Virus record (IMG/VR): IMGVR_UViG_3300028048_003121
Direction: 5' to 3' (one strand)
Length of the DNA stretch: 64,000 nucleotides
Source: an uncultured virus (IMG/VR IMGVR_UViG_3300028048_003121)
Lineage: Duplodnaviria > Heunggongvirae > Uroviricota > Caudoviricetes
Made by a program: the position numbers and the translations under genes
In this document: positions 1-48,880 of the stretch, one piece after another
Layout of the letters: the number at the start of each line of letters is the position of its first letter
Numbering within the stretch: position 1 is the first letter of the stretch
The notes under the pieces: generated by a model
The model's database searches: none
What the model saw: only the letters and a program-made list of their open reading frames with translations
What the model was told of the DNA's origin: nothing

Positions 1-3000
1 AGGCTTCATCATTTCATCGGCACGCTCCGGCGTAGCGGCTGCCAAGGCAGCACGGTATTGAAGGTCGGTGAACGCATCGGCCTTACCAGTAGCAGAAACC
101 TTCTGAATATCCTCAGAAGCAGCTACTTCTTGCTCCTCTCCAGAGTTATAGTTCATCTGGTTCGTCACACGTGCATCTACGACGGCACAAAGGAAGTCGG
201 CATAGATACCCAAACGTACCAATGCCTCCTGACGGTCTTCCTGATTATAGAAACGCTTACCGGCGATACTATCGAGCGCGTTCAGGAAGTCGCGCTCCTC
301 AGCAAGAACCTGCGTCTGATCCATGTCATCAAGGCGGTTAATGGTCGCATTAACCTGCTCACTCAAATCCTCATAAGGCACAGCGGTCCACTTTTCAATC
401 AGATGACTGACGGCATCCAGAGAAAGGTTGGTATGCCAGTCGATACCATAGTCATTCAAAGTCTTACGGGCCTCAGTAGCCTGAGTTTTCTCCTTACTAT
501 AACGGTCGGAATGGTAATCCTCCTTATTAGCAAGAATATAGAGTTGCTGACGGATGCCGTCAGGCAGAGAGGGCGAGTAGACCTCACCATTCATCTCAGC
601 CAAACGCTTACGGGCAGCGAAGATAACCTCGTTGTCCTGATGAATCATATAACCGTCAGTGTTCTCGGCAGCCTTGGCTTCCAGCCATTGCTTATCGTCA
701 ACACGGGACTTCTGCAAGTCCATCATCTCCTTGATCCATTCCTCTGCCTTCTGACGCTGGGAGAAAGTACCCTCTACATCAGCCGCACTGACCAGATGGT
801 TACCACACCAGGTACCACAATGAACGTAAGCACGTTCACGCCAGCTACCGGTATCGGCAGCCTCGCGCATCTCGGAGAGACTGACAAGACCCAATACCTC
901 ACGGTTGAAGGCGACCTTATGGTCACGGCCTTCCTTGTAAATCCTATAGACAGGCTCCTCCTGCTTGGGAAGAGACTTTACAGTCTCATCAAGGCTGGCC
1001 TGTATCTTCTTGTCAAGCTCCTCCATATCATGCTTCAGGGAAGCAAGCTCCTCCTCCTTGGGCCATGCCTTGCCTGCAATACGCTCGTACTCGCTGATAT
1101 CCTCGGAAATCTTCCTGTTACGCTCCTCATACTGAGCGATATAGGAAGGAATCTTGTCTAATGCCTGCACACCGTAGCGCACAGCTCCAAGACGGTTATC
1201 CTTGCTCATGGCAAGGTGACCATTATTGAACTCATACTGATAATGACCCTGAATATAGAAACGGTTGCCTGCAAAGACATCCTTTTTCTGGGTGTTGTCA
1301 TACATATAGATGCTGTCAACAATGAATGGGAAACCATAGACTTCACCAATCTGTCTGTCCTTGTTGCCGACAGTACGACCGGCATCCTGAAGCTTACTGC
1401 CCATACCCTCAATGTTATACTTTCCGTCAGGGGTGAACTCCGGCTCATTCATCATCACAAGACCTGGCAGGGCGATACCGTCCTCACCACGCTTGATGAC
1501 TGACTGGAACTTCTCATAGTCCTCAGTCATATTCTTGATGATGACCGTATTCTTCTGAACCTTCTCACGGGCATTCTCCAAACGCCACTCGGTATCACGA
1601 CGGGCCTGCATATAGCTCTTACGCTCCGACTCCAGACCCATAATCTTCTTTTCCAGCTTCGCCTTCTGCAGCAAGTCATCATTACCGGAAAGAATAGCCA
1701 CCATCTCGGCGAAGTTCATACCGTTCTCTTCATCAAAGGCACCCTCATCGATGACACGGGTACCAAGGGAGTTGGTCTTCAACTGCGTGATGAAGAGCTG
1801 TTTGTTACGAAGCAGGTTGAACTTATAGACATCCAGACTGCGCTCAACGGCATAGATAAGGACATCGACATTGTTACCGCCGAACTCCTTGGCAACCCAG
1901 TTGCCGGTACGACGGGCACGTCCGTTACGCTGCTCCAAGTCAGACGGACGCCAAGGAATGTCGATATGGTGGACGGCAACGGCACGCTTCTGGGCATTGA
2001 CACCCGTACCAAGGGTGGAGGTGCTGCCGAAGAGAACGCGGATCTTACCGTCGTTCATATCCTCAATCATCTGCTTACGCTGCTTCTCATTCTTCGCCTC
2101 CTGGATGAAACGGATCTCTGCAGCAGGAATACCATAGTCATTGACGAGCTTGTCCTTGATCTCCTGGAAAACATTCCACTCGCCAGGCTTATAGGTGGAA
2201 AGGTCGCTGAAGATAAACTGCGTACCTTTCTGCTCGTCATACTTCTTATAATAGTCGGCAACCATGCGGGCGCAATGGCTGGCCTTATTGTCGGGGTCAT
2301 CACTGAAACGCTCCTTGGAAACAAGGCGCATATCCAACGAGGCCTTACGGCTGGCATCGGTGGCAATGAGCATCTTACCCTTTTCCTCACTATCAGAGAG
2401 AGGAGCACGGAAAATAAGCTCACCGTCGCCAGTCTTGGCGAACTCTATCAGACGCTGGTTGAAATCCTGCTGATCCTTGGTGGGCTTGATGCTATGCAGG
2501 ATGACGTTCATATTGGGACGGTCGAGACCGACATCCTCACCAGTGCGGAAGTCGGTGATTTCATTATAGAACGTAGCAAGCTCAGGAACCTTAACGAAAT
2601 AGCGGAAACGCTCCTTAACGGCTACCTGATTGGTGACGTTGAACTCATAATCCGACGTCTTCTTGGCATAGACGGCAGCCCAGGCATCAAAAGAATGGAT
2701 GCCCTGACGAGCCATAGCCTCCGGACGAAGATACTTGAAGAGCAAGTATAGCTCAGTAAGGCTGTTGCTGATGGTCGTACCACTTAGGAACGTCGCGCCA
2801 AGGTCTTTACCCGTGCGGTTCTGGATGGTACGGATGGCATACAGCAAATTCAAAGCCTTCTGACTGCCAGCAGGACTACCCAAACCAGAGACACGCTGAT
2901 GACGCGTGGTGAACATCAAATTCTTGAACTGGTGGCTTTCATCGACAAAAATATGGTCGATGCCCATCGTTCCGAAATCCACCACGTCATCGGTACGCTG

Positions 3001-6000
3001 ACTCATGGTAAGCTGGATATTCTTCAGCTTAACCTCCAGGTTCTCCTTGCGTTTCTCCAGACCGGAGAGCATACGCTTGGAGATGCTATGTCCCTGCTGA
3101 CGCAAGACGTCCAGAGCTTCCTCGACATCACGAAGCTCGTCATCGAGAATCTGTTCCTGAATCTCCAAGGACTGGGGAATCTTACCAAACTGGTCATGCG
3201 ACATAATGACGCAGGCATAGTCGTTATTCTTGATTCTATTGAAGAACTGCACTCTGTTGGCAGGACTGAAATCCTTCTCAGAGGCATATAATATCTTATC
3301 ATCGGGAAAAGCGGCCTGATAGGTGGCTGCAATCTCTGAGACATTGGCCTTCAAAGCAATAATCATCGGTTTATTGGCCATACCCAGACGGTGCATCTCA
3401 TGGGCAGCCATACACATGATAAGGGTCTTACCAGTGCCTACCTCATGGTCGCAGATGCCACCGCCATTCTGTAAGAGCATCCAGACGCAGTCCTTCTGAG
3501 ACTTGTAGATATCCTTGACATTGAACTTGGGAGCGGCCAGAGCCTTCAAGTCAATGCCGGGGAATGTCTGATGGGTTCCGTCATATTGGGCTTTGACGAA
3601 ACAGTTGAACTTCCGGTTATACATAGTCTGAAGCTCGTCACGTTGCTCCTTGGGGAGATTGGTGAGATAATCCGTAAAACCGTCGCGGATTTCCTGAATC
3701 TTGCTGTTGGCAAACTGAATCTTCTCCATGTCAGGGCCTTTGACATCGTTACCGTCATGGTCATAACCGACGCACTTCTGGATGTCAGGTGTAGTGTCAT
3801 GGAAGGCATGCTGGAGCAATGACATACCGTCAAAGTCCTTATATTCACCATGGACGCAGAACTCCTCACGGATCTTGGGATTCCAACGGTTCTCGGCAGA
3901 GACGGAATACTCATCGATATGCTCCGCATAACTGATAGACATCTTGGTGCCGAAAACCTTAGACATGTAAGCCTCGTAATGCTCGGTGGGAATCCAGCGC
4001 TCACCGAACTGCAGACCAATCTCATCAAAGGGAATCTGCTGGGGAACGGCAGCCTCCAAGGCAGCCTTGGTCTCTTTCAGGGCTGCAAGCTCTTCCTGTG
4101 ACCAGTGCTCAGGATCATCCTCCTGGGCATCAATGGAAGCAGAGACAAACTCCAGCTTCTCATAGATATTACCTGAGAGTGCCTTGGCGGCAATCTCATA
4201 CTGGCCGTCAGGCATGAAATAGAGCTGACCCTTCAGGACGGCAAGCAGCTCATCACGGCCTTCACCCGTGATATCCTCCATGAATCCGAGGTCAACACGA
4301 CCATAACGGTTCAGGGACACGAAAAGAGCCTCTTCCGGCGTGTCCACATGCTCGATGTCGTAGGCGACAAACGAGACGGGACGCTCAAAGATGTCGCTCT
4401 TGACGAACTTCCCGTCAACGACATTCTCCACACACAGCATGTCACGCGCCATCGTGTCATAGAGCAAGACACGCTGGTTCCTACGCTCGTTGAGCGCACC
4501 ATACTTCATGAAGAAACCGTCATAGGCCTCGTTGAGCTTCTGACGCAGGTCGGCATGCTCGACCTTTTCCTCAGCCTCTATATTATATAACTCATTATAG
4601 AGATCGCGAACGGCGATATACTGACGCATGAGCGGATAGTCACGCTGAGAAAGCTCACTATCCTTGAAGGGATTGAAGACGGGCGTACCTGACTTGACCT
4701 GGCTCAGAATACCGAGCTGGTCGCCATCGGCAACGACGACACCGTCACGCCAGTGGGCTTTCATCTCACCGGCAAAGGCACGAGGCTCCAGACTCTCTTC
4801 CTGGGCCTGCTCTTCATCCCACTGTGCGAAAAGGTCAAGCTGGATGGGACCTGAGCCGACATGCTGCTGGCTCTTAGGCTGCTGCTTGACAGGATCTATC
4901 TTTGGCTTTGCCTGCTGGACCTTATATATATTCTTATTATATAGGGCGACATCCAGACGCTTGGCGAAATCCATTTCAAGGGTGTCTTGAAGCTCTTTGG
5001 CAAGCTTCTCGACATCACCGTCGAAAGGATATTCATAGGCCGGCTCACCATACATATTCTTACCGACCTTGACATCATCGGAAAGGATGTGACCCAGCTC
5101 ACCATAGTCATGGTAATTCTCCTTATCTGGAGTGAAAGCCCAGTTACAGGTGATACCGTTATCACCTTTCTCAGATTCACGGAACATCCTATCCAGATGA
5201 GAATCCTTTCCAACATACTTGCTGTCGCGCTTCTGGATAATAATCAGGTCAGAACCTGCCTCGGTGCCAGCCTCGCTGCTGAACATTCCGTCAGGCAGAC
5301 GGACGGCACTGATGATGTGACCGACCTTGGAGAGACGGTCACGGACAAAGCCGTTACGAGGACTGTCAAGAACACCCCTGCTGGTAATGAAAGCAACCAG
5401 GCCACCGTCATGAACGGTGTCAAGGGCTTTCAGGAAGAAATAGTTATGCAGGGTGTTGGCAGCCCACTTCTTATACCCATCATTACTGTTGGTATAATCG
5501 GGGTCGAAGACCTTGACATCCCCGAAGGGTATATTACTGGTAGTCAGGTCAAAAGTCCCCAAGACCTCCTGCGGAATGGTCTCGAAGCCATTGACAATAA
5601 CCTGGTCTTCGGGATGCAGTGCCTTCAGGATCTTGCCGGTTAGCAAGTCCTTCTCGAAGGCAGTGACCGCCATACCCGGCTGGTCAACCTTGAAAGCCTC
5701 GACGAATTTTCCGTTGCCGGAAGAGGGATCCAGAAACCTATTAACGGCAATGCCGCTACCAGACAAAGCCTTGCTGATAGCCTGCACAACAGCATCAGGA
5801 GTATAGAAAGCAGTCGTGACACTACGCTTCAGACTGTCAAAATAAGCCTGATACTCCTTATCGTCCTTACTGAACTCCTGCAAGACCTCATGCAGACGGA
5901 TGGTGTCATTGAGGTAAGGACGATCGCTGGCCTTCCAGACGCTGTCATCCTGAAGGCTGACACCATAGACGGGGTTCAGAATGAACTTCAGACCGCCGAA

Positions 6001-6126
6001 GCCACTATACTTGCGAAGGGCTGACAGCTCCTCGGCAGTGGCCTTGCGGTTGTCACGTTCCAACTGGAGAGCGATACGGATCGCCTCGATATTATCACTG
6101 AGCTTTTGATGCTTGTTATATGCCAT
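1..6126 (-). CDS. Large N6-adenine DNA methylase / SNF2-type helicase fusion (DarB-like), >2040 aa, 3' end beyond window
   Basis: Absent from the ORF track because it has no stop in the window. ATG at 6126 gives [17 protein letters not shown]...[13 protein letters not shown]. Motifs read by eye: [10 protein letters not shown] (SAM binding), SNIPFGD (catalytic), DHEVGTGKT (Walker A), [10 protein letters not shown] (DExH). Frame still open at base 1. Confidence 0.9.
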
Positions 6127-6191
6127 AATCAACTGCTATGCGTTTCTTTTCCCGACAAAGGAAATAGAAATATGGCACACCACCTAAAATC

Positions 6192-6256
6192 GGCAAAGTT
6201 TCCTCTTGATTTAACACATTTACGATTTTGAAAGTCTTAAATACCGAAAATCAAGA
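6192..6256 (-). promoter_or_regulatory. Conserved upstream motif, copy 1 (shared with tra operon promoter at 27271-27335)
   Basis: 30-nt identical core TTCCTCTTGATTTAACACATTTACGATTTT at 6200-6229 and 27279-27308; both copies lie ~70-80 nt upstream of a minus-strand operon start. Confidence 0.75.
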
Positions 6257-6329
6257 TTTTCAAGGTCTTAAATCAAGACGATATAAGATTACTGGAGATG
6301 ACCATAAAAATAAAAAATATCGAAAAATA

Positions 6330-6361
6330 TTTGGAGATACCAAAAATTTTTTGTACCTTTG
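6330..6361 (+). promoter_or_regulatory. Bacteroidetes sigma-A type promoter (-33 TTTG / -7 TAnnTTTG)
   Basis: TTTG at 6330-6333, 20-nt spacer, TACCTTTG at 6354-6361. Confidence 0.7.
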
Positions 6362-6505
6362 CAGCATAACAAACGAGTAGACGGGTAAAAAGTCGCAATA
6401 GCGACATAATGGGAGGCTCCTACTCGCTGTTGGTGCTTGGGCATGAGCATGGTAACTGGCTCACCTTTAAGGATAAAGCCCAGCCAACTCCTGAAGAGCA
6501 GGACG

Positions 6506-6546
6506 GAAAGACCACAGAGATCCTTCGGGGTTTCTGTGGTCTTTTT
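6506..6546 (+). terminator. Strong hairpin plus U-tract, just upstream of guide scaffold A
   Basis: AAAGACCACAGAGATCC-TTCG-GGGTTTCTGTGGTCTTTTT. Confidence 0.7.
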
Positions 6547-6552
6547 GCATAC

Positions 6553-6636
6553 GGGCCGGCTGTACGGCCTTAACGTGAGGGCATTGCCCACTCACGAATC
6601 AAGCGTTCATTAACATCGAGGCAAGCTTGATACAGC
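6553..6636 (+). ncRNA. Guide scaffold A (tracr-like RNA fused to a repeat 3' fragment)
   Basis: GGCC-GGCTGTAC-GGCC hairpin; CGTGAG...CTCACG hairpin; anti-repeat ATCAAGCGTTCATT; ends in AAGCTTGATACAGC. Homologous to three other loci in the window. Confidence 0.8.
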
Positions 6637-6830
6637 CGTCCATCATGTCTGAATAGACAGACAACGGGTGTTAGACACCCGAAAATGAAAGCTTGATACA
6701 GCTCAACCGCATGGATGCCGCCATCCTGAACAGGTGTTAGACACCCGAAAATGAAAGCTTGATACAGCTAAAGATGAGGTCTTTGGCACGATATATGGGT
6801 GTTAGACATCCGAAAATGAAAAAAACAGTG
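6623..6830 (+). CRISPR. Mini CRISPR array A: repeat GGTGTTAGACACCCGAAAATGAAAGCTTGATACAGC, 3 spacers
   Basis: Partial repeat 6623-6636; full identical 36-nt repeats 6667-6702 and 6733-6768; degenerate repeat from 6798. Spacers 6637-6666 (30 nt), 6703-6732 (30 nt), 6769-6797 (29 nt). Confidence 0.92.
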
Positions 6831-6921
6831 AAGCGTCGCGGCTCACTAAAATATATAAAGAATAATAATACCATTCTGGTCTACGAGAATCCGCGACATC
6901 TCGCCCAGGGTGGTATTTTAA

Positions 6922-7215
6922 ATGGAAATGATTATGAGAAAGTTATTGATTAGTCTCGTGATGGCGCTGGCAACAATATGTGCACAGGGCCAGGAGAAAA
7001 CAACGGTGACAATAAATGACACCTGTAAAGTTGAAGGTCAGACGTCTTCAAAGACGGTGAAAGTCACCAAGAAACAGAAGATGAAAAAACTGTCAAAGAA
7101 AGAACAGAGACAGCAGCTGATGAAAAGAAACAAGACGGCAAGCTATGTCGAAGCATCAGCAGAAGATAAGCATAAAGACAGCATAGCTGGTGTGACAAAC
7201 CTTAAACTTTATTAG
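6922..7215 (+). CDS. Small secreted basic protein
   Basis: Signal-peptide-like N-terminus MRKLLISLVMALATICAQG; followed by a terminator hairpin. Confidence 0.65.
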   Translation: MEMIMRKLLISLVMALATICAQGQEKTTVTINDTCKVEGQTSSKTVKVTKKQKMKKLSKKEQRQQLMKRNKTASYVEASAEDKHKDSIAGVTNLKLY

Positions 7216-7221
7216 ATAGAC

Positions 7222-7252
7222 AAAAAGAGGATGCCTGCAAGCACCCTCTTTT
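7222..7252. terminator. Bidirectional intrinsic terminator
   Basis: AAAAAGAGGATGC-CTGCAA-GCACCCTCTTTT between convergent genes. Confidence 0.65.
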
Positions 7253-7318
7253 AAAATTTCTGCATTAAAATCTACCACCTGCTATATCGCTTATATGTAG
7301 GTAGCACGGAATCAAACC

Positions 7319-7756
7319 TTACCGCCTCATAAACTCAGCCTCGTCGAAGCTGTCAAAGCGATCGAAACAACCGTCAATACGGAGGTCGTCGGACTTCTTG
7401 ATGATGTCGATACCATACAATTTAGTCTGTTGAGTCAAAGCCTGTCTCATACAGTCATCATCAAGTTCTATCTCCTTATAGATGTTAATATAAGTATTAA
7501 ACAATTGACGCCGAGCACCATTGCGTATAACAGTCTTACCGTTATAGGTGACGCCATTCTCTCCGCGACCATTATTATTATATGTCATGTAGATAGATGC
7601 CACCGTTTCGTAAGTGTTGGTATCATAGATCCAGATCATCGCAGTATTACTAACAGGGTCGTAACGAGCCTCTGACGCGTAATGACACGCCAAAACATTC
7701 AATGGTGTTGCAAACAAGCCGAACATCATCATCATCATAAATACAATCTTCTTCAT
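7319..7756 (-). CDS. Secreted hypothetical protein
   Basis: Signal peptide MKKIVFMMMMMFGLFATPLNVLA; 145 aa. Confidence 0.7.
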   Translation of the reverse strand: MKKIVFMMMMMFGLFATPLNVLACHYASEARYDPVSNTAMIWIYDTNTYETVASIYMTYNNNGRGENGVTYNGKTVIRNGARRQLFNTYINIYKEIELDDDCMRQALTQQTKLYGIDIIKKSDDLRIDGCFDRFDSFDEAEFMRR

Positions 7757-7825
7757 AATACAATCTCTTTAATTAAACCTAACAAAAACTAACACATCCT
7801 ATTTCGCGAAAATAGTTTCATAAAA

Positions 7826-12535: not shown

Positions 12536-12952
12536 TTACATACGGCGGTCATGACCCCAGATAATGCCTCTTCCTCCGTCGGGAAGCTCAATGACATAGG
12601 GGTCACGGACACCTATAATGTCAGTACCGATATGTCGGGGAGAGTCATCATCCGATGACGAACCGCCACCGGAAGACAGCTTGGCAGTAGTGGCATCCAG
12701 ACCAAAGAAACGGGGTAGAGCCGTACTCGCCGTGACAAGGAAGACACACGAGAAAGCAAGACGCATCACCTTCATGCGAACCTCCGGCTCGCCGTCCATC
12801 ATGTCTGAATAGACAGACAACGCGCCGACAATACAGATGACGGCTGCTATCGCATAGCAGACGGCACGGACATAGAAAAGGTAGCTGGCGACGCCTGTAG
12901 CGGCGAGGCCCAGCGGATCAGCGGTTAAAATCAAGTGTGTCATAAGCATCAA
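12536..12952 (-). CDS. DUF4134/TraE-like pilin paralogue (target of spacer A1)
   Basis: CYAIAAVICIVGALSVY...FL..ALPRFFG aligns with the TraE at 25892-26305. Confidence 0.75.
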   Translation of the reverse strand: MMLMTHLILTADPLGLAATGVASYLFYVRAVCYAIAAVICIVGALSVYSDMMDGEPEVRMKVMRLAFSCVFLVTASTALPRFFGLDATTAKLSSGGGSSSDDDSPRHIGTDIIGVRDPYVIELPDGGRGIIWGHDRRM

Positions 12953-22622: not shown

Positions 22623-25562
22623 TTATTTCTTATCAGGAAGGGGTGGCAGGTTCAAGACCCTGCCCTCCTTATTGACCTTCGTGGCGAAGTCAAGGGTCTT
22701 CTTGATGCCACTGCGCTGATAGTCACGGACGAAGGCCTCAATGGCATGCTGATGGTCACACTTCAGCTCACGCTTGTAGAGCTTCAGGGCTTCCTTCTCA
22801 GCCTTCTCCGTCGTATAGCTCATATAACACTCGATAGGTTCCTCGATGCCGTAGACATCGGAAACGGTGTCGTTACCGGCACGCTTGATGAACACCTCCT
22901 TGAAAGGAGAACGACCGTCCTTGTTATCCAGACGGTTGATGGTGAAGATTTTGCGGCACTCGATATCGGTCAGGGCCAGCGTCGCCTTGATATCGTCGAA
23001 CTTCTCCTGGAACTTCGACTGGTCAAGGAGCATGAATACATCGGAGTTATTGATGATGGCCTCCTTGACAATAGGCGACGAGGTGATGTCCTGTATCTCC
23101 TGAGTGACAACACCGACCATAGCCCAATGCTTACGGGCGGTCTTGTAGAGATACTTGATATACTCGGCCATGACAGGCGTGGCGATAGCCTTCCATGCCT
23201 CCTCGATGACCAGACACTTACGGCCTTTCTTGATACGCATCTTCTGAGTGAAGACGTCCATAATGATAAGGACGATAATAGGAAAGAGCACGGGGTCATC
23301 CTTGACCTTATCGATCTCGAAGACGATGAACTGCTCATCGAAGAGGGAGCCGTCCATATCATTATTCAGCGTATATTCCAGCTCACCACCCTTGTAGAAG
23401 GGCGCGAGGATGGCACGATAGTTATCAATCTCAAAATGAATCCTATCCTGCGACATGATCTGGGGAATACGCTGGATAGAATACTCGTAAAACGAGTTGA
23501 AGTTAAGCTCAGTGACCTTCAGGGACTTGCGCTTCTGCTCCATACGCTCAATCTCACGATTGATCTTCTCCAGGAACTTACCCTCGACAACCTCCGGGGT
23601 AAGACGCTGGAGCTGATTGGAAGCGGCAGCCTTCTCACCGTCGGTAGCGGCAGAGTCATCGATGACAGCCTGCAACTTCTCAGAGATTCGCTTATTCTTC
23701 TCGTACTTCTCACGATCGGCATCGGTGACATCATAGGTGCCGGTGCCGTTACGGCTCTGAAGTTCCTCCTCATACTTCTCATACTCGCCATTGGTCTTGG
23801 AATCCAAGATCAGGCGATCGTAAAGTTCCTTGCGCTCATCATCACTATAGCCCTTGAAAGGCGTGAAATACTCGCGGTAATAGTCCACAATGACCTTATT
23901 GATAATCGTGTCCTCAATCTTCGTGGGTTCCTGGGCACCCTTGAAGATCAGGAAGATGAGGGACTTCAGGAAGTTCTTCTTCTCGCCGAAATTCTGAGTG
24001 TACTCAACCTCGGTGACCTTGAACGGGTTCATCGAGATAGGATGCTCCTTGGTATAGCTGATGTACGTACCGCCGAAATAGCCGCAGATACCCTCGTAGG
24101 AGTCACCGGTATCAACGATGACAACGTCAGTGTTCTGCTCGTAGTACTGGCGTACAACGGTATTCATGAAGAAGGACTTACCGCTGCCCGACGGACCCAA
24201 CACGAAGAAATTCGAGTTGTTGGTGTGTTTGACCTTTCCCTCCTTACCGGTGATATCCACGGCAAGGGGAACACCCTGGCGGTCGGTATAGTAACACTTC
24301 AGCGGCGTGTCCTCAGACTTGGACTGGCGCTCCTTATACATCAGACACAAGGCCGCATCACTCAGCGTGAGGAAGCGGTCATAGTCAGGCGAGAGACGGT
24401 AGCAGTTGCCGGGGAAGCAGGCCACGAAAAGTTCCAGCTGGTTATAGGCCCTCTTGGAGATATGGATGCCCTGACGGGCGAAGATGTTCTCCAGATGGTT
24501 CGTGACCTTCTGCATGTCCTTATCGGCATCTATGGTGACGATAAGGTTATAATGCGCATAAACCAGCTGCTTGGACTCCTTGGCAATGACATCCTGCACC
24601 TTCTTGATATCCTCGGCAGCAAGGGTGTTGCTGGGATTGGGCATGGAAGCATGACGGTTACGCTTCTTGTCGAGCATGGCCAGCTCACGCTTCTGGTTGG
24701 GCAGGAACAATACCTGGTTGAAGACAACACAGTCCGCATCGGGAATGCGGTCAATCTCACTCATCAGGTCGACAGGCATCACACTATTGTTGACGGTCAT
24801 GTCAACATAGGGACGCAAGGATCCAGGGAGGCCGATGGAGTCCACATCCAACAGACTGTAGACCTTTGACGTGCGACGGCCCATATGGATCTCCTCACTG
24901 TCAACCTTGAAATCGGTCATGCTGACAATCTTCGACGTGAAATCCTGGGCGAAGAAACGGTCAGCATACTGACGGCAGGCATTGGCATCCAGGAAGGAGG
25001 CAGCGACACCGCCGTCCTTCAACTGGTCATAGACCTTACGGATCTTGACCGTGAAATCGCGCCACTTCGAGGCATCATAGCTCAGAAGGGCACTCTTCTT
25101 ACACTCCTGCGTGATAACAAGATAGGTGCTGCCGTCAGTGTACGGACGTCCGTCCATGAAACGGAAATAGCTGTCCGAAAGGAACAGACGGTTGGTGTCA
25201 GCATTGGGGTCACGACGGGCCGAGACCTTCTTCATATCGAAATGCTTGCGGGCAAAGATGTCCTGCTTATGCAGGGCATAGCCCTCACCAAGCGTCTGGA
25301 GAATACTGGTCATCAGAGCGGTAAACGCATAATAGCTCTCCACGTCGGCAGAGTACTTCTGAACAGGATTCTCCATACGGAGGATGGCTGAGAACTCGCC
25401 GGTCTTGGTATAGACGACACCGATGCCGTCAACATTCTCGATACTGAAATAGATATCCTTAAAGATGTTGGCACGCTTGCCACCAGTACCGAAGGCATAG
25501 ACCGATACGGCCATGCCGATACAGAGGAAGACAAACGACACAATCACGAAAAGTGTAAGCAT
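22623..25562 (-). CDS. traG: TraG family VirB4 conjugation ATPase
   Basis: NFFVLGPSGSGKSF (Walker A); LVIEEAWKAI (Walker B); KTARKH. Confidence 0.95.
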   Translation of the reverse strand: MLTLFVIVSFVFLCIGMAVSVYAFGTGGKRANIFKDIYFSIENVDGIGVVYTKTGEFSAILRMENPVQKYSADVESYYAFTALMTSILQTLGEGYALHKQDIFARKHFDMKKVSARRDPNADTNRLFLSDSYFRFMDGRPYTDGSTYLVITQECKKSALLSYDASKWRDFTVKIRKVYDQLKDGGVAASFLDANACRQYADRFFAQDFTSKIVSMTDFKVDSEEIHMGRRTSKVYSLLDVDSIGLPGSLRPYVDMTVNNSVMPVDLMSEIDRIPDADCVVFNQVLFLPNQKRELAMLDKKRNRHASMPNPSNTLAAEDIKKVQDVIAKESKQLVYAHYNLIVTIDADKDMQKVTNHLENIFARQGIHISKRAYNQLELFVACFPGNCYRLSPDYDRFLTLSDAALCLMYKERQSKSEDTPLKCYYTDRQGVPLAVDITGKEGKVKHTNNSNFFVLGPSGSGKSFFMNTVVRQYYEQNTDVVIVDTGDSYEGICGYFGGTYISYTKEHPISMNPFKVTEVEYTQNFGEKKNFLKSLIFLIFKGAQEPTKIEDTIINKVIVDYYREYFTPFKGYSDDERKELYDRLILDSKTNGEYEKYEEELQSRNGTGTYDVTDADREKYEKNKRISEKLQAVIDDSAATDGEKAAASNQLQRLTPEVVEGKFLEKINREIERMEQKRKSLKVTELNFNSFYEYSIQRIPQIMSQDRIHFEIDNYRAILAPFYKGGELEYTLNNDMDGSLFDEQFIVFEIDKVKDDPVLFPIIVLIIMDVFTQKMRIKKGRKCLVIEEAWKAIATPVMAEYIKYLYKTARKHWAMVGVVTQEIQDITSSPIVKEAIINNSDVFMLLDQSKFQEKFDDIKATLALTDIECRKIFTINRLDNKDGRSPFKEVFIKRAGNDTVSDVYGIEEPIECYMSYTTEKAEKEALKLYKRELKCDHQHAIEAFVRDYQRSGIKKTLDFATKVNKEGRVLNLPPLPDKK

Positions 25563-27202: not shown

Positions 27203-27270
27203 AATTTTCTTGCGTTATTTTGAAATTTCTGACGCAAAGAAAACACCTATTTAATGAAAGGGAAAATATT

Positions 27271-27335
27271 GGCAAAACTTCCTCTTGATTTAACACATTT
27301 ACGATTTTTAAAATCTTAAATGCCCGTAATCAAGA
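27271..27335 (-). promoter_or_regulatory. Conserved upstream motif, copy 2 (tra operon)
   Basis: Shares a 30-nt identical core with 6200-6229. Confidence 0.75.
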
Positions 27336-27679: not shown

Positions 27680-27868
27680 ACCTTTTTTGCTTTGCAAAGT
27701 TATGCTGCACCGGAGCCACGTCAAGTACCGTACCTATTCCTTCTGAAATTGCCTGGCAGCCTTCCGCAGATTACTGCATAATCTGGGTATTCCATGAAAT
27801 TTCCTCGGAATTACTTGCCTAACACCTCCTAAGAGGGTGCCGCATGGTCACAAGCAAACAAAAAAGGC
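27680..27868 (+). promoter_or_regulatory. Large imperfect hairpin, candidate ssDNA (Frpo-like) promoter for the dnaN operon
   Basis: 96-nt core 27722-27817 is 94/96 identical to 58467-58562; nested inverted repeats; CTTG-19 nt-TAACTTTG on the minus strand of the left arm. Confidence 0.6.
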
Positions 27869-30992: not shown

Positions 30993-31015
30993 ACAACCCA
31001 AAAGAAAGAGAGATA

Positions 31016-31312
31016 ATGAACACAAAGCATATCATCGTCCTGATCCACGACGAACAGGCAAAGCCATTCATCCTGCACAGCGACAAACGCTTTCATGAGA
31101 ATATCATCGAACGGCACGGCTGCCATGTCACGGAATACCTGTCTGAGGCAGCAGCCAAGAAGAAAGCGGCACAGTGCTGCAAGCAGTACACCTACGGCAA
31201 GAGCCACGCCATGACATACGGCGACCTGGAGAGACTGGAGGCAAGGCTCCAGGGGTGCTACGCCCACGGGCTACGCACCAGAATGATAGAAGAATTTCTG
31301 GAAGAGCTATAG
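31016..31312 (+). CDS. Hypothetical protein
   Basis: 98 aa; followed by hairpin AATCCCCAAAGGTA...TACCCTTGGGGATT. Confidence 0.65.
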   Translation: MNTKHIIVLIHDEQAKPFILHSDKRFHENIIERHGCHVTEYLSEAAAKKKAAQCCKQYTYGKSHAMTYGDLERLEARLQGCYAHGLRTRMIEEFLEEL

Positions 31313-31503
31313 GATAAATCCCCAAAGGTACGATAAATTACGTTACCCTTGGGGATTTTCCGTGGAAAACCTACTATTTTCCATTGATAACGGAAAAATT
31401 TCCTCAGAACGCACTAAAATAGTGCAAAAACGAAGGGAAATTTCCATTTAGTGGCAGAAAATTTCCGTTTTAACGATTTTCTTGCAAAAAACGACGGAAA
31501 AAT

Positions 31504-31534
31504 TTTGTTATTACAAAGAAAAATCGTAACTTTG
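31504..31534 (+). promoter_or_regulatory. Bacteroidetes sigma-A promoter for guide locus C
   Basis: TTTG at 31504-31507, 19 nt, TAACTTTG at 31527-31534; scaffold starts ~15 nt downstream. Confidence 0.78.
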
Positions 31535-31549
31535 CAGGGTGTCATTATC

Positions 31550-31633
31550 GGGGCAGCTGTTTGCCCTTAACATGAGGGATAAATCCACTCATGAATCATG
31601 CGGTCATTCTCATAATGATAAGCTGAATATAGC
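31550..31633 (+). ncRNA. Guide scaffold C (tracr-like RNA fused to a repeat fragment)
   Basis: GGGCA-GCTGT-TTGCCC; CATGAG...CTCATG; ends AAGCTGAATATAGC. Confidence 0.8.
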
Positions 31634-31750
31634 ATTAGACGCTCCAGCCTTGTACTCCTTGAAGGTGTTAGACACCTGGGAATGAAAGCTGAATACAGCT
31701 TGGGTGATAAATCGTAACTATAGTTTCCTGGTGTTAGACACCTCTAATAA
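31620..31750 (+). CRISPR. Mini CRISPR array C: repeat GGTGTTAGACACCTGGGAATGAAAGCTGAATACAGC, 2 spacers
   Basis: Partial repeat ending 31633; spacer 31634-31663; full repeat 31664-31699; spacer 31700-31729; truncated repeat from 31730. Repeat is closely related to array A. Confidence 0.85.
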
Positions 31751-31773
31751 AACAAGGTAAGATGACTCCTACC

Positions 31774-32094
31774 TTATTTTATTTGTCTATTTTTCTTATC
31801 CTCCCGTCTGGCTTCACGAATCAATCTACGCCATGCAAAGCGACTAAAATGATTATGCCTACGCTTCAACCTCCGTCGAGTAGATGGCTTGTTAAGAATA
31901 CCGTCCCATAACTTGTAATAAGTCAGATGACGGTAACGCCACCCTTTGCCAAACAGGGCAAAGGAGATATTCTCAATGGATGGCGAAATCTCCCTGCACC
32001 AGAGCTGGACGATAGCGGAGAAAATAACAGTCAGTAGTATGGATGCTATAAACACCCATACTACAATGCCGGTCCAGTAGAACATCCTATCCAT
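31774..32094 (-). CDS. Small membrane protein
   Basis: N-terminal TM, basic tail. Confidence 0.6.
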   Translation of the reverse strand: MDRMFYWTGIVVWVFIASILLTVIFSAIVQLWCREISPSIENISFALFGKGWRYRHLTYYKLWDGILNKPSTRRRLKRRHNHFSRFAWRRLIREARREDKKNRQIK

Positions 32095-32101
32095 CGTTCC
32101 G

Positions 32102-32992: not shown

Positions 32993-32996
32993 AAGC

Positions 32997-33305
32997 TTAA
33001 CTATATTGAATTTTATCCTTGTCTATACGCTGTCCACTCCTGTCACGAAGGTGATCCTGAACAGCATCAATCACATTGTCGATGACACGGTCAATGAAAT
33101 GCTGGGGAGCTTTCTCGCCTTCAAGGGCGGCAGAGAAAAGCATGTCTGCAGGAACCTGGATGCCATGGTCGGCATGAATACCGACAATGCCCTCTACAGC
33201 CTGATTCTCCTGATGGTTGGCAATGACGAGGACATAATCCAGGTTCTCGTCTTCCAACTGCTGACGGATGCCGTCAACCAATTCTTGAAATTTCTGATTA
33301 TCCAT
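32997..33305 (-). CDS. Hypothetical protein
   Basis: 102 aa; operon packing. Confidence 0.65.
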   Translation of the reverse strand: MDNQKFQELVDGIRQQLEDENLDYVLVIANHQENQAVEGIVGIHADHGIQVPADMLFSAALEGEKAPQHFIDRVIDNVIDAVQDHLRDRSGQRIDKDKIQYS

Positions 33306-33319
33306 ATAACCGGTGCTTC

Positions 33320-34075: not shown

Positions 34076-34093
34076 AGTCTATAAAATTTGATG

Positions 34094-35101: not shown

Positions 35102-35119
35102 AGCCGTAGCAATTAAATT

Positions 35120-35689: not shown

Positions 35690-35701
35690 ATTTTCACGCT
35701 T

Positions 35702-36409: not shown

Positions 36410-36415
36410 AATAAG

Positions 36416-39084: not shown

Positions 39085-39101
39085 AAGGGTTAAATTAAAC
39101 G

Positions 39102-40959: not shown

Positions 40960-40965
40960 AATACA

Positions 40966-46795: not shown

Positions 46796-47188
46796 TTATT
46801 CGGCTTCGCTAACTGTCATAAAATTCTGAGAGGCACGGAGAATGGCTAATACCTGTTTGTCCTGCTTGGGGAACAAACCTACCATGGTCTTACCAATCAC
46901 ACGCTGGATCTTGTTAGCCTTACGGGAGAGCTGGTCGGCAATACTGAACTTGGTATTCATCTCGTCAAGATAGAGGCGACGCTCCTCCATCATAAGGCGA
47001 TGTTCCTCAATCTGGAGTTTCTTAAAATCCAGTTTGCAACGCTCCAAATTGACAATAGCATTGATCTGCTTGACTTGAAGCTCACCACGACGGATGTCTA
47101 TGTCCGTCTCAGCCTTCTCGTTCATTCGCTGACTGAACTCTTCTTCAAGAGCGCAGAGGTCGAAAATTTTTTCTTGACTGTCCTTCAT
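46796..47188 (-). CDS. Coiled-coil hypothetical protein
   Basis: 130-aa ORF. Confidence 0.6.
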   Translation of the reverse strand: MKDSQEKIFDLCALEEEFSQRMNEKAETDIDIRRGELQVKQINAIVNLERCKLDFKKLQIEEHRLMMEERRLYLDEMNTKFSIADQLSRKANKIQRVIGKTMVGLFPKQDKQVLAILRASQNFMTVSEAE

Positions 47189-47220: not shown

Positions 47221-47327
47221 TTTTATACCCAGATTGGCGCTATCAATAGGGATTTCCCGTTGTATGTAGCTATATGAGCACTTCATGAGTGAATAAATTC
47301 CTCACGATAGGGGTGTACAACCGCCCC
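47221..47327 (-). ncRNA. Guide locus D: minimal scaffold plus 29-nt spacer immediately downstream of dCas12f
   Basis: Minus strand: GGGG-CGGTTGTACA-CCCC; CGTGAG...CTCATG; ...CATACAAC; spacer GGGAAATCCCTATTGATAGCGCCAATCTG (47258-47230); degenerate repeat start GGTATAAAA. Confidence 0.75.
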
Positions 47328-47337: not shown

Positions 47338-48624
47338 TTATTTTGTTTTATCTTTTATTTCTGACTCTTTAAGTTCCTTAACCTCAATACCCACAGCATC
47401 AGCCTTATACTTGATTTTCGTCTTTAAGCCGAAATAACTCCAGTTTCTCAGAACCAGACCATCACCCTTCTCATGGTCTTCCTTGGCCTGGTCTTCACGC
47501 TCTTTCTGGTTTACCAGAACAATCTTTCCACACTTGTGTTTGATAGCTAAGTTGATAAGCTCACGGGAATAGGTGTGAAGCTTGGTGTCAACATAGTTAT
47601 TTTCCTTATCATGCCAACGCTCAATTGCCTGACACTTGCGCTTACGTCCATGACCGCCCTTGGCATATTTATTATTAGCCTGACAACGTTGTACCGCAGC
47701 CTGGATCTGAGTACGGCGATAAAGAAACTCTTCCTTCGTACCTATATGGAAGAATTTAACACCGCTGTCATAAACATTCTTGGCTACGACATTCACACAA
47801 AAAACAATCGGGTGGTTGATACCCAGATAAGCGTAAAGCACCTTATTAGAATTAAGAGCCACTTTCTGGACGGGAATATCTACACAGAGGAATAGAAAAA
47901 GCTTCTGCTTCTTTTTTTCAGACTTTTTATCAAATTTCTTCTCAAAGGCAATAGATGAAGAACATACCTTTAATTCACCATCGATACAACGCTGAAGAAT
48001 AGACTCATTATTAGATCTGTCCTGCCCCAGATGACAGCAGAAAGGAATACCGAAAAGATTGAAATAATAACGGTTCACCTTCTTTACCTCGCCAGTATTG
48101 GTGTCGGTATATTCTTCCTCGGCCTTATGAAGATTTGACAAGGCACGAGCAGAGAACGGAATGGGAATATTGTTTTTATAACTCCGTAATGAACTCTCAC
48201 CAACAGCAATATTGCCGGCAGTTTCCTTGTAGGAACTGGCAACAAGCTGATTAAGACAAGTATATATGTCTGAATTAACTTTATTCTTTAAAAAAGAAGA
48301 AATCAGACGATAAGTGACATTCTGTTCACTCAGTCCTTTTTCGTCTTTAAGGATGTCTTTAGAGTCCTTGTAAGCAAGCTTGAAACCATCAGTCTTCTTG
48401 TCCTTATAGACAAAAGGCTTATTATTAATATCAAGACGCTCCAAGACATCATCCTGCAAATACATAAACTCACGGACGTTCTGTTGAACAAAACGGTGAG
48501 ATACAATCAGATTTGCAGCTCTACGAACAGCATCACGCCAGTCATATAATGTCTGCATGTACTGTTTCTTCTGTTCGGTGTCCTGTTCGTGAACACGGAT
48601 TTCTATTTTACGAGTTATAATCAT
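47338..48624 (-). CDS. Cas12f/TnpB-family RNA-guided protein with inactivated RuvC (dCas12f-like)
   Basis: ITRKIEI N-terminus; GGHGRKRK; LHTYSRELINLA; LRNWSYFGLKTKIKYKA..GIEV. RuvC-I reads YAYLGI instead of xDLGI; RuvC-II reads IVLVNQ instead of IxxEDL; no Zn finger or RuvC-III. Flanked by guide loci. Confidence 0.85.
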   Translation of the reverse strand: MIITRKIEIRVHEQDTEQKKQYMQTLYDWRDAVRRAANLIVSHRFVQQNVREFMYLQDDVLERLDINNKPFVYKDKKTDGFKLAYKDSKDILKDEKGLSEQNVTYRLISSFLKNKVNSDIYTCLNQLVASSYKETAGNIAVGESSLRSYKNNIPIPFSARALSNLHKAEEEYTDTNTGEVKKVNRYYFNLFGIPFCCHLGQDRSNNESILQRCIDGELKVCSSSIAFEKKFDKKSEKKKQKLFLFLCVDIPVQKVALNSNKVLYAYLGINHPIVFCVNVVAKNVYDSGVKFFHIGTKEEFLYRRTQIQAAVQRCQANNKYAKGGHGRKRKCQAIERWHDKENNYVDTKLHTYSRELINLAIKHKCGKIVLVNQKEREDQAKEDHEKGDGLVLRNWSYFGLKTKIKYKADAVGIEVKELKESEIKDKTK

Positions 48625-48640
48625 AATACTAAAATTTTTA

Positions 48641-48792
48641 ATTCATTCGGTGTGTTACACCACCTTGTTCAAGTTATGTCAAGTATCATTCGCTGTGTGT
48701 CACCTCATTTCTTCGGTGTTTTACACCGGGTCGATAGTGTCCACGAAAATCTTTATGCTGTGTATCACCTCATTTCTTCGGTGTTTTACACC
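48641..48792 (-). CRISPR. Mini CRISPR array B: repeat GGTGTAAAACACCGAAGAAATGAGGTGAYACACAGC, 2 spacers
   Basis: Full repeats 48757-48792 and 48692-48727 (1 mismatch); truncated repeat 48641-48661; spacers 48728-48756 (29 nt) and 48662-48691 (30 nt). Confidence 0.9.
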
Positions 48793-48814
48793 TGACTTCA
48801 CGAAAGTCCTTGAC

Positions 48815-48880
48815 TTTTAAAAATTGAGAGCGACTTCGTGAGTGGAAATTCCCTCACGTTAAGGGCATCACAGCTGCCCC
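48815..48880 (-). ncRNA. Scaffold B (tracr-like, not fused to a repeat)
   Basis: GGGCA-GCTGTGA-TGCCC; CGTGAG...CTCACG; anti-repeat GTCGCTCTCAATTT is imperfectly complementary to AAATGAGGTGAC of repeat B. Confidence 0.78.

What the first reader, a model, noticed from the sequence alone, without database searches (positions are those of the whole stretch)
6553..6636. Conserved tracr-like scaffold in four copies with compensatory base changes and a pseudoknot
Seen in sequence at 6553(+), 31550(+), 48880(-) and 47327(-). (1) Hairpin 1 has a loop complementary to the repeat 3' end: GCTGTA/TACAGC in A, GCTGTG/CACAGC in B, GCTGT/ACAGC in C, GTTGTA/TACAAC in D. (2) Hairpin 2 is CRTGAG-inner stem-A-CTCAYG. 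(3) An anti-repeat tracks each locus's own repeat: ATCAAGCGTTCATT versus AATGAAAGCTTGAT in A; GTCGCTCTCAATTT versus AAATGAGGTGAC in B. The covariation indicates selection on RNA structure and ties the remote arrays to the same effector.
Basis: seen in the sequence. Interest (0 to 1): 0.85.

Follow-up and report, generated by a model that had tools for sequence, protein, structure and literature searches.

The report
Guide-RNA scaffolds of a plasmid dead-Cas12f
The four repeated RNA elements are real, structurally conserved guide-RNA scaffolds for a cutting-deficient miniature Cas12f carried on a rumen Prevotella-type conjugative plasmid, a recently described kind of RNA-guided DNA binder, and one guide matches the plasmid's own conjugation gene.

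Summary
Observation confirmed. All four copies lie at the stated coordinates. A covariance model built only from 50 non-window relatives finds exactly these four in the window (55.6-64.9 bits; next best hit 8.9 bits).

Covariation supports all four parts of the structure:
- both hairpins;
- the 5-6 bp pseudoknot between the hairpin-1 loop and the repeat 3' end;
- the anti-repeat:repeat duplex.

The effector is ORF 47338-48624(-), a nuclease-dead Cas12f. Its best solved relative is 9n9c, 'Nuclease-deactivated Cas12f' (E 1.4e-62). RuvC-I is Tyr, RuvC-II is Val, and the Zn-ribbon/RuvC-III tail is missing.

The same RNA model hits the guide RNAs beside sigma-factor-linked dCas12f genes close to the published Flagellimonas protein. 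The scaffold therefore belongs to the dCas12f/Cas12f guide-RNA kind (Hoffmann et al. 2026, PMC13472631).

This clade has no sigma factor upstream (0 of 32 loci). It sits on plasmids and phages and keeps mini-arrays.

Guide A1 matches the element's own DUF4134 conjugation gene 30/30. Guide B2 matches a rival element's replication gene 27/30.

The likely function is nuclease-free, RNA-guided DNA binding that interferes with transcription; this step is inferred. Verdict: new member of a known kind. An earlier scan note (e1-5348588) described a related phage dCas12f on other DNA.

The parts
6553..6636 (+). Scaffold A. Hairpin 1 is 6553-6570, with loop GCTGTA at 6559-6564. Hairpin 2 is 6574-6596. 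The anti-repeat at 6598-6604 pairs with 6625-6631. The pseudoknot 3' strand TACAGC is 6631-6636. The scaffold is fused to a truncated repeat.
6637..6821 (+). Mini-array A. Guides are A1 6637-6666, A2 6703-6732 and A3 6769-6797. The 36-nt repeats are 6667-6702 and 6733-6768, and a degenerate terminal repeat starts at 6798.
12793..12822 (+). Protospacer identical (30/30) to guide A1. It lies inside the DUF4134 conjugation gene 12536-12952(-). Its 5' flank is GCTCGC.
31550..31633 (+). Scaffold C, fused to a truncated repeat. A Bacteroidetes-type -7 box, TAACTTTG (motif recalled), lies at 31528-31535.
   Evidence: a contig from an RNA run starts at 31556
31634..31790 (+). Mini-array C. Guides are C1 31634-31663 and C2 31700-31729, the repeat is 31664-31699, a partial repeat follows, and a terminator-like hairpin with a T-run ends the unit.
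48757..48880 (-). Scaffold B (48880-48834), then the anti-repeat, a 28-nt linker (48820-48793) and the first full repeat (48792-48757).
   Evidence: adapter-flanked insert about 48873-48742 in RNA runs
48640..48756 (-). Mini-array B. Guides are B1 48756-48728 and B2 48691-48662, the repeat is 48727-48692, and a degenerate repeat starts at 48661. It lies directly upstream of dcas12f.
47338..48624 (-). dcas12f, 428 aa, nuclease-dead. Y266 stands at the RuvC-I Asp, V371 at the RuvC-II Glu, and there is no Zn-ribbon/RuvC-III tail.
47259..47327 (-). Scaffold D, a minimal fused single guide that starts 11 nt after the dcas12f stop. The loop is GTTGTA and the 3' strand is TACAAC.
47229..47258 (-). 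Guide D1. Its length is assumed; no target was found.
46796..47188 (-). 130-aa ORF of unknown function. It belongs to the 2.1-kb cassette (46798-48936) that the sister plasmid G001:C5 lacks. It is conserved next to dcas12f in 7 loci.

Best explanation
Each copy is the scaffold part of a guide RNA for the nuclease-dead Cas12f encoded at 47338-48624(-).

The RNA has four paired elements:
- hairpin 1, whose loop forms a 5-6 bp pseudoknot with the last bases of the CRISPR repeat, immediately 5' of the guide;
- hairpin 2;
- an anti-repeat that pairs with the repeat body.

The scaffold is transcribed in cis with the first repeat and guide, as a natural single guide. In modules A, B and C it heads a 2-3 spacer mini-array whose later repeat-spacer units can pair with a scaffold in trans.

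The dCas12f-RNA complex binds matching DNA without cutting it. It most likely interferes with transcription or replication of its targets, which include the plasmid's own DUF4134 type IV secretion gene (guide A1) and genes of rival mobile elements (guide B2).

Shown: the sequence, the structure covariation, the linkage to dCas12f, the loss of catalytic residues, and the A1 and B2 matches. Inferred: binding, RNA processing, and repression as the outcome.
For: Effector. PDB 9n9c 'Nuclease-deactivated Cas12f' matches at E 1.4e-62. Catalytic Asp and Glu are replaced and the C-terminus is truncated.

Linkage. R1 gives 216 hits in 99 sources, on the effector's strand in 209 of the 212 hits outside the window. 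R2, built without the window, recovers exactly the four copies.

Structure. Covariation supports the hairpins, the pseudoknot and the anti-repeat. MFE folds leave the hairpin-1 loop and the 3' tail free, with z from -2.7 to -3.8.

Known architecture. Cas12f1 guide RNAs have a long repeat:anti-repeat stem plus a 5-7 bp pseudoknot stem (PMC11246509, passage).

Homology to published guide RNAs. R1 hits 5 copies downstream of L056 dCas12f. That protein matches 9n9c at E 1.9e-131, and its upstream ORF has Sigma70 r2/r4 domains.

Targets. A1 matches 12793-12822 at 30/30, and the site is kept in sister plasmid G001:C5. B2 matches the 3' end of a Lin1244_N/DnaD-like gene in L009 at 27/30.

No adaptive or cutting machinery. 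No Cas1/2/4 and no sigma factor were found among the window ORFs scanned.

Expression hint. In metatranscriptome contigs, word depth is 60-85 over module C and 16-30 over module B, against about 0-8 elsewhere. One adapter-flanked insert spans about 48873-48742, ending 15 nt into guide B1. This fits the 14-16 nt guides reported for dCas12f (PMC13472631, section read).
Against: - Only 1 of 9 window guides has a perfect target, and 1 has an imperfect one. A2, A3, C1, C2, B1 and D1 found nothing in the window, in the 167-kb sister plasmid, or in the collections tried. Those were D1 against 251 family genomes, and A2, A3, C1 and C2 against IMG/VR by exact 20-mer.
- No consistent TAM emerges from the 5' flanks of the 4 guide-target matches tabulated; position -1 is C, G, G, A.
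- The B2 match has a mismatch at guide position 5.
- The A1 site is intragenic. RNA polymerase on the tra operon would meet its TAM-distal end first; by analogy with dCas12a (recalled, not tested) this is the weaker roadblock orientation.
- Self-locus targeting is not general: 1 hit among 281 guides, against 2 for reversed-guide controls.
- The RNA evidence comes from assembled contigs. It gives no strand, and DNA carry-over is not excluded.
- Binding, processing and the regulatory outcome are untested.
Confidence: 0.75

Rival explanations
1. RNA-guided transcription activation, as in the published dCas12f-sigmaE systems. The complex would recruit a sigma factor and RNA polymerase and start transcription about 46 bp downstream of the TAM. 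At the A1 site this would give an RNA antisense to the upstream tra genes.
For: The closest solved relative is the sigmaE-partnered dCas12f. The scaffold is homologous to the guide RNAs of sigma-linked loci. The published mechanism and its geometry were read in PMC13472631 section 9.
Against: - No Sigma70-domain ORF was found among the scanned window ORFs.
- The nearest upstream same-strand ORF has Sigma70 domains in 0 of 32 loci with at least 42% identity to P0001. It does in 6 of 6 tested loci of the 35-38% identity group, plus L056. Nine near-duplicate loci were dropped before that scan, and a sigma factor elsewhere on the plasmid is not excluded.
- The A1 target is inside a gene and oriented antisense to it, unlike the published targets upstream of genes.
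Confidence: 0.12
2. A canonical type V-F immune system. The scaffold would be a trans-acting tracrRNA for a DNA-cutting Cas12f that destroys invaders.
For: There are CRISPR-like arrays with variable spacers. Near-identical loci L094, L103, L104 and L107 differ in their first spacer. Loose ends at 48755 and 48792 carry other spacer-like sequence in RNA runs. The RNA architecture is the Cas12f1 type.
Against: - The RuvC-I Asp aligns to Tyr, the RuvC-II Glu to Val, and the Zn-ribbon/RuvC-III part is absent.
- No cas1, cas2 or cas4 was found among the scanned ORFs.
- A perfect self-target on the same replicon would be lethal to the plasmid if the enzyme cut.
Confidence: 0.03
3. Relics of TnpB/omegaRNA transposons. 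The copies would mark the ends of IS200/IS605-like elements, and the guides would be leftover flanking DNA.
For: Copy D sits right after the gene's stop, as an omegaRNA does. The protein hits TnpB models weakly. The dcas12f cassette 46798-48936 and module A (6304-7819) are clean indels relative to sister plasmid G001:C5.
Against: - Repeat-spacer arrays follow three of the four copies.
- No TnpA was found among the scanned ORFs.
- No terminal repeats or target duplications are visible at the indel junctions.
- Guide A1 is an exact copy of a distant gene segment, not flanking DNA.
Confidence: 0.05

Closest known systems
Guide RNAs of nuclease-dead Cas12f (dCas12f-sigmaE RNA-guided transcription; Hoffmann et al., Nature 2026, PMC13472631; structure preprint 10.1101/2025.06.10.658880)
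   Same: - The protein is homologous (9n9c, E 1.4e-62).
- The scaffold model built here also hits the guide RNAs next to Fta-like, sigma-linked dCas12f genes.
- There are four base-paired regions plus a 3' guide. P1-P4 are described in the preprint passage.
- Natural single-guide forms exist (module D).
- The paper itself notes loci that mix single guides and CRISPR arrays, and a separate cluster of dCas12f near arrays with putative guide RNAs upstream of them.
   Different: - No sigma factor lies beside the gene here or in 32 related loci.
- The scaffolds head true mini-arrays.
- Four modules are spread over 42 kb of a conjugative plasmid, two of them on the strand opposite to the gene.
- One target is intragenic in the plasmid's own tra gene rather than upstream of susCD-type operons.
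- I did not see the paper's figures or supplements. Identity with its 'CRISPR-associated dCas12f cluster' is therefore not established.
Cas12f1 (type V-F) crRNA:tracrRNA / sgRNA
   Same: [quoted passage not shown] The protein family is the same.
   Different: The scaffold is about 50-85 nt and encoded in cis directly upstream of the array, not as a separate tracrRNA gene. The effector is catalytically dead, and no adaptation genes were found.
Phage 'dCas14' with a host-targeting spacer (Al-Shayeb et al., Nature 2020, PMC7162821)
   Same: A Cas12f/Cas14 carried on a mobile element lacks a catalytic residue, and its spacer was read as a repressor guide (passage read).
   Different: That case is a huge phage targeting a host glycyl-tRNA synthetase gene. 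Here a conjugative plasmid has a self-target in a tra gene, and the RNA scaffold is resolved.
TldR (TnpB-like nuclease-dead repressors)
   Same: These are truncated, nuclease-dead TnpB-lineage proteins that use a scaffold-plus-guide RNA to repress genes. They are mentioned in PMC13472631 and in the search listing for PMC13622181.
   Different: TldRs derive directly from TnpB with omegaRNA-type guides and no arrays. This protein groups with Cas12f/dCas12f.

Membership tests
Cas12f-type guide RNA (tracr/sgRNA architecture) | Encoded next to a Cas12f-family effector | tested here: met
   R1 gives 216 hits in 99 sources that flank dcas12f homologs, and 209 of the 212 hits outside the window are on the gene's strand. 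B and D abut the gene in the window.
Cas12f-type guide RNA (tracr/sgRNA architecture) | Long repeat:anti-repeat duplex | tested here: met
   Cognate duplexes average -9.3 kcal/mol against -5.6 for non-cognate pairs, and are better in 91% of 86 copies. MFE folds show the stem.
Cas12f-type guide RNA (tracr/sgRNA architecture) | Short (5-7 bp) repeat:anti-repeat stem forming a pseudoknot next to the guide (definition from PMC11246509) | tested here: met
   The loop and the repeat 3' end covary, with C:G 74, T:A 23 and 2 mismatches at loop position 2.
Cas12f-type guide RNA (tracr/sgRNA architecture) | Guide lies 3' of the repeat, and target matches start at the first base after the repeat | tested here: met
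   The A1 match of 30/30 starts exactly after TACAGC. The B2 match starts at guide position 1.
Cas12f-type guide RNA (tracr/sgRNA architecture) | Physical binding to the effector | not testable with these tools
   Needs RIP-seq or reconstitution.
Published dCas12f gRNA scaffold family (Hoffmann et al.) | Matches the published scaffold covariance model | tested here: inconclusive
   The published model was not available. As a proxy, R1 hits 5 copies downstream of L056 dCas12f, which matches 9n9c at E 1.9e-131.
Nuclease-dead Cas12f (dCas12f) | Cas12f fold and homology with RuvC inactivated by substitution and C-terminal truncation | tested here: met
   Y266 and V371 stand at the catalytic positions, and the alignment ends about 70-90 residues before the ends of the active Cas12f chains.
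dCas12f-sigmaE RNA-guided transcription system | rpoE (sigmaE with C-terminal extension) in an operon with dcas12f | tested here: not met
   No Sigma70 domain in the window ORFs scanned. It is present in 0 of 32 related loci, against 6 of 6 plus L056 in the Fta-like group.
dCas12f-sigmaE RNA-guided transcription system | Targets lie in intergenic DNA upstream of, and in sense with, the regulated gene | tested here: not met
   The A1 target is inside gene 12536-12952(-) and on the opposite strand sense.
Canonical type V-F CRISPR-Cas immunity | Active RuvC and adaptation genes cas1/cas2/cas4 | tested here: not met
   RuvC; no Cas1/2/4 among the scanned ORFs.
TnpB/omegaRNA transposon | TnpA or IS ends; omegaRNA overlapping the gene's 3' end | tested here: inconclusive
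   No TnpA was found among the scanned ORFs. D starts 11 nt after the stop. No terminal repeats appear at the cassette junctions.
Rfam families | Reaches the gathering score of any Rfam 15 model | tested here: not met
   0 hits in the window at gathering threshold, and 0 hits at E<=1 in 6250-6900.

The most novel reading that the evidence does not exclude
The plasmid uses dCas12f as a programmable, nuclease-free regulator with a dispersed set of guide modules. Guide A1 would throttle the plasmid's own type IV secretion (DUF4134) gene, which is RNA-guided fertility control. Other guides would silence replication or recombination genes of rival plasmids and phages. Sister plasmids that lack the effector but keep an orphan guide module (G001:C5 keeps module C) could borrow dCas12f supplied in trans. 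The window also holds three stages of guide-RNA fusion for a single effector: scaffold + linker + full repeat, scaffold + truncated repeat, and a minimal single guide.
Probability: 0.25. Interest if true: 0.75.

Novelty: new member of a known kind. Interest (0 to 1): 0.45.

Why it matters
- It gives a clean natural example of how Cas12f guide RNAs move between the dual form (tracr plus crRNA) and the single-guide form. Three fusion states serve one effector on one replicon.
- It extends the newly described dCas12f systems to a sigma-less clade of plasmids and phages that is widespread in rumen and gut metagenomes. The family has 930 proteins at E<=1e-10, and the cassette is held in runs from 12 studies.
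- The perfect self-match to a conjugation gene makes one question directly testable: do mobile elements use nuclease-dead CRISPR effectors to regulate their own transfer and to silence competitors?
- The compact scaffold (about 70-85 nt) and its covariation map could also guide engineering of small dCas12f tools.

Tried and rejected
I used the nearest genome, G001, instead.
- Targets for the other guides:
  - none in the window at up to 4 mismatches in the first 18 nt;
  - none on G001:C5 at up to 2 mismatches in 16 nt, apart from A1 and the array copy of C1;
  - D1 23-mer with up to 3 mismatches: 0 of 251 family genomes;
  - A2, A3, C1 and C2 exact 20-mers: 0 in IMG/VR;
  - B1, B2 and D1 were not scanned in IMG/VR.
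- Self-locus targeting across 281 guides: 1 hit (the window's A1) against 2 for reversed-guide controls, so it is not a general feature within ±10 kb.
- TAM: not derivable from the 5' flanks of 4 guide-target matches.
- Neighbour proteins up189 (P0122) and down130 (P0123): no Pfam, PHROG, NCBIfam or PDB sequence match. The ESM Atlas gave only scores below 0.9 for P0123. up189 belongs to the plasmid backbone, because homology to G001:C5 resumes at 48937. I ran no fold or complex prediction, since I make no binding claim.
- INPHARED phages and PLSDB plasmids hold no close dCas12f homolog. The best matches are 24-30% identity TnpB-like hits. Megablast of 40000-52000 against phages gave only a 37-nt spurious match.
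- The leader upstream of module A has no relatives in the fetched loci and no Rfam match.
- Parts of the laid stretch without contig cover are not read as silence.

Full report
**1. What is in the sequence**

Each has the same parts:
- a G+C-rich hairpin with loop G(C/T)TGT(A/G/T);
- the linker TTAAC or TATC;
- a second hairpin, C(G/A)TGAG, an inner stem, an A bulge, then CTCA(C/T)G;
- GAA and a variable anti-repeat.

What follows the scaffold differs between the copies.
- In A and C, the scaffold runs straight into the last 13-15 nt of a 36-nt repeat ending in ACAGC. Spacer-repeat units follow: three guides in A, two in C.
- In B, a 28-nt linker and a full repeat follow, then two more guides. 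This module lies directly upstream of ORF 47338-48624(-).
- In D, the scaffold starts 11 nt after that ORF's stop and carries a minimal stem plus one guide.

Nothing else in the observation needs correction.

**2. Is it more than chance?**

Model R2 was built from 50 homologous sequences taken from other loci, none from the window. Run with filters off, it scores the four copies at 55.6-64.9 bits (E 2e-13 to 3e-11). The next best hit in the 64 kb scores 8.9 bits.

MFE folds of the four modules give the two hairpins and the anti-repeat:repeat stem. They leave the hairpin-1 loop and the 3' tail unpaired, with z-scores from -2.7 to -3.8.

**3. The effector**

ORF 47338-48624(-) encodes P0001 (428 aa). 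Its best solved relative is 9n9c, 'Nuclease-deactivated Cas12f' (E 1.4e-62), followed by active Cas12f chains.

In the printed alignments, the RuvC-I Asp of the active enzymes (GvDLG) aligns to Y266. The RuvC-II Glu aligns to V371. The protein ends about 10 residues after the last aligned block, where active Cas12f chains continue for 70-90 residues through the Zn ribbon and RuvC-III.

The catalytic residue numbers D228, E327 and D434 for SpCas12f1 come from PMC12255294 (passage). That chain 8hr5_A is that protein is my inference from its length of 497 aa.

No cas1, cas2, cas4, tnpA or sigma-factor domain was found among the window ORFs scanned with Pfam, PHROGs and NCBIfam.

**4. Context**

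The window is part of a Bacteroidales conjugative element. It carries TraG/VirB4-like, TraM, TraN (DUF4138), TraK and TraJ-like genes and two DUF4134 genes. It also has a primase, a RecD-like helicase, DnaN, an integrase and methylases.

The window is collinear, at 90-97% identity, with contig C5 of the nearest held genome, G001. C5 is 166,918 bases. The match wraps around the contig's ends, so C5 is probably a circular megaplasmid.

That sister plasmid differs from the window in three ways that matter here.
- It lacks window 6304-7819, which holds module A, its leader and a 145-aa ORF.
- It lacks window 46798-48936, which holds array B, dcas12f, guide D and a 130-aa ORF.
- It keeps module C and the A1 protospacer.

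No dCas12f homolog was found anywhere in G001, which is 93% complete, with either the protein or the family profile.

The cassette is held in 20 of the 24 listed sequencing runs, from 12 studies, mostly bovine gut or rumen metagenomes.

**5. Relatives and linkage**

P0001 has 930 relatives at E<=1e-10 in the large protein collection. I fetched 111 loci.

Model R1, built from the four window copies, gives 216 hits at E<=0.01 in the 99 sources searched. Of the 212 hits outside the window, 209 are on the strand of the dcas12f homolog. Typically several lie in each locus, on both sides of the gene. In the window, B and D share the gene's strand and A and C do not.

**6. Covariation**

Hairpins. 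On the structure-independent MAFFT alignment of 50 relatives, 97.2% of cells form standard pairs, against 33-49% when partners are slid. 12 of 15 pairs have changes on both sides, and no shuffle out of 500 reaches the observed covariation score. The model-fitted alignment of 150 hits agrees: 96.0% paired and 13 of 15 pairs.

Pseudoknot. Among 129 non-redundant copies, the exact complement of the copy's own loop 5-mer is found within 130 nt downstream in:
- 76/87 copies with GCTGT;
- 25/27 with GTTGT;
- 5/6 with GCTGC;
- 3/5 with GTTGC.

Non-cognate complements are rare. When the 3' strand is chosen by position alone, 102 of the 129 copies are usable. Loop position 2 then pairs C:G 74, T:A 23, T:G 3 and C:A 2. 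Loop position 5 pairs T:A 85, C:G 8, T:G 8 and C:A 1. The sixth pair is A:T in 93 copies and G:C in 5.

The copies are related, so the Fisher p values overstate significance. However, 13 loci hold two or more loop types. Copies without an exact complement mostly carry ACAGT-type (G:U-compatible) ends, as seen.

Anti-repeat. The duplex energy with the copy's own repeat averages -9.3 kcal/mol, against -5.6 with other copies' repeats. The cognate duplex is better in 91% of 86 distinct copies.

**7. Architecture classes**

The distance from the scaffold to the pseudoknot strand peaks at three values:
- about 70 nt: scaffold + linker + full repeat, as in B;
- about 35 nt: scaffold abutting a full repeat;
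- 12-17 nt: a minimal fused stem, as in D.

The window holds the first and third classes and an intermediate (A and C), all for one effector.

**8. Relation to what is known**

[quoted passage not shown] That is exactly the layout found here.

Hoffmann et al. (PMC13472631; abstract, sections 5, 9, 25 and 28 and passages read) report the following:
- dCas12f homologs in Bacteroidetes work with sigmaE and chimeric single guide RNAs with 14-16 nt guides;
- some loci mix single guides and CRISPR arrays;
- a separate cluster of dCas12f lies near CRISPR arrays, with putative guide RNAs found by covariance upstream of the arrays, and is predicted to repress.

The companion preprint describes P1-P4 plus a 3' guide (passage).

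My model R1 hits five tandem guide RNAs downstream of the dCas12f in L056. That protein is 365 aa and matches 9n9c at E 1.9e-131, and its upstream ORF carries Sigma70 r2/r4 domains. The window's scaffold is therefore homologous to the guide RNAs of sigma-linked dCas12f.

By contrast, the nearest upstream same-strand ORF carries Sigma70 domains in 0 of 32 loci whose dCas12f is at least 42% identical to P0001. It does so in 6 of 6 tested loci of the 35-38% identity group. For that scan, 43 of 52 candidate ORFs were sent and nine near-duplicate loci were dropped. The neighbours in the P0001 clade are mobile-element genes: primase, antirepressor, resolvase, topoisomerase and ParA.

Al-Shayeb et al. 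2020 already proposed a phage 'dCas14' acting as a repressor (PMC7162821, passage). I found that paper through an earlier scan note.

Searches for 'dCas12f' with 'conjugative', and for 'nuclease-dead Cas12f', 'Cas12f', 'Prevotella' and 'mobile genetic', found no paper on plasmid-borne dCas12f modules of this kind. I did not see figures or supplements. The published cluster may therefore already include this clade.

**9. Targets and likely function**

Guide A1 (6637-6666) is identical over 30/30 nt to 12793-12822(+). That site lies inside the DUF4134 gene 12536-12952(-), about 130 nt from its start. The site is conserved on the sister plasmid.

Guide B2 matches, at 27/30, the 3' end of a Lin1244_N/DnaD-like gene on a related element, L009.

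Two further cross-element matches were seen. An L068 guide matches an exonuclease-like gene in L084 at 24/25. An L079 guide matches a small ORF in L066 at 22/24. The gene labels for these two are my reading of the translations; no family scan was run on them.

The other window guides found nothing in the searches run.

Near-identical loci differ in their first spacer. RNA-run contigs also carry alternative spacer-like sequence at the B repeat borders. The arrays therefore turn over.

Taken together, the most likely function is nuclease-free DNA binding that interferes with expression or replication of targets. The supporting points are a dead nuclease, no sigma partner, a tolerated perfect self-target, and targets in the core genes of other mobile elements. 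The targets include the plasmid's own transfer apparatus and competing elements. This step is inferred.

The points against are listed in the Against line. In particular, the A1 site faces the tra operon's polymerase with its TAM-distal end, and no TAM could be derived.

**10. Expression hint**

In metatranscriptome runs X15 and X16 (one sample), summed contig depth is 84.8 and 60.3 in the bin 31604-32207. It is 16.5 and 29.8 in the bin 48516-49100, and about 0-8 in most other bins of 31000-49100.

One contig starts at 31556, 6 nt inside scaffold C. Contig ends carrying sequencing-adapter sequence bracket about 48873-48742. That is scaffold B minus 7 nt, through the first repeat, ending 15 nt into guide B1.

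These are assembled contigs. They give no strand, and DNA carry-over is not excluded. The high-depth contig over C also covers two genes on the other strand. I treat this as a weak hint that the modules are transcribed, and that the mature guide may be short, as published for dCas12f.

**11. Verdict**

The element is a guide-RNA scaffold of the Cas12f/dCas12f kind, so the RNA itself is a new member of a known family rather than a new class.

The system-level features are the interesting part and are experimentally testable:
- a sigma-less dCas12f on a conjugative megaplasmid;
- four dispersed modules in three fusion states;
- a perfect self-target in a tra gene;
- an orphan module on an effector-less sister plasmid.

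Noticed in passing
window 6366-6552 (+): A 187-nt leader lies between a Bacteroidetes-type -7 box (TACCTTTG at 6353-6360, motif recalled) and scaffold A. It folds very stably (-77.6 kcal/mol, z -6.2) and ends in a 20-bp terminator-like hairpin plus a T-run. It has no Rfam match and no relative in the fetched loci. It could be an independent small RNA or an attenuator gating module A.
   Followed up: partly
window 6304-7819 and 46798-48936, compared with G001:C5: Both the module-A region and the dcas12f cassette are clean indels relative to a 95-97% identical, apparently circular 167-kb sister plasmid. No terminal repeats or target duplications are visible at the junctions. How these cassettes move is unexplained.
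   Followed up: partly
L121:3104-3153(-) = G001:C5 about 23104-23153: The sister plasmid keeps module C, with an identical first guide, although no dCas12f homolog was found in that 93%-complete genome. It is an orphan guide module.
   Followed up: partly
window 40459-40560 and 41008-41088: Tandem 21-nt repeats lie inside or next to the two Lin1244_N (DnaD-like) replication-type genes. They may be iterons.
   Followed up: no
window 6186-6256 and 27265-27335; 27719-27825 and 58464-58570: There are two pairs of intergenic direct repeats, at 86% and 95% identity. Further copies of the first lie on G001:C5. Their function is unknown.
   Followed up: no
window 1-6132 (-): A very large ORF (more than 2044 aa, open at the window edge) carries SNF2/ResIII helicase domains, typical of the anti-restriction proteins of large conjugative elements.
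   Followed up: no
L056:11143-12388: Five tandem guide-RNA copies lie downstream of a sigma-linked dCas12f. Their pseudoknot pair is TTGTA/TACAA, a further compensated variant of the same structure.
   Followed up: partly
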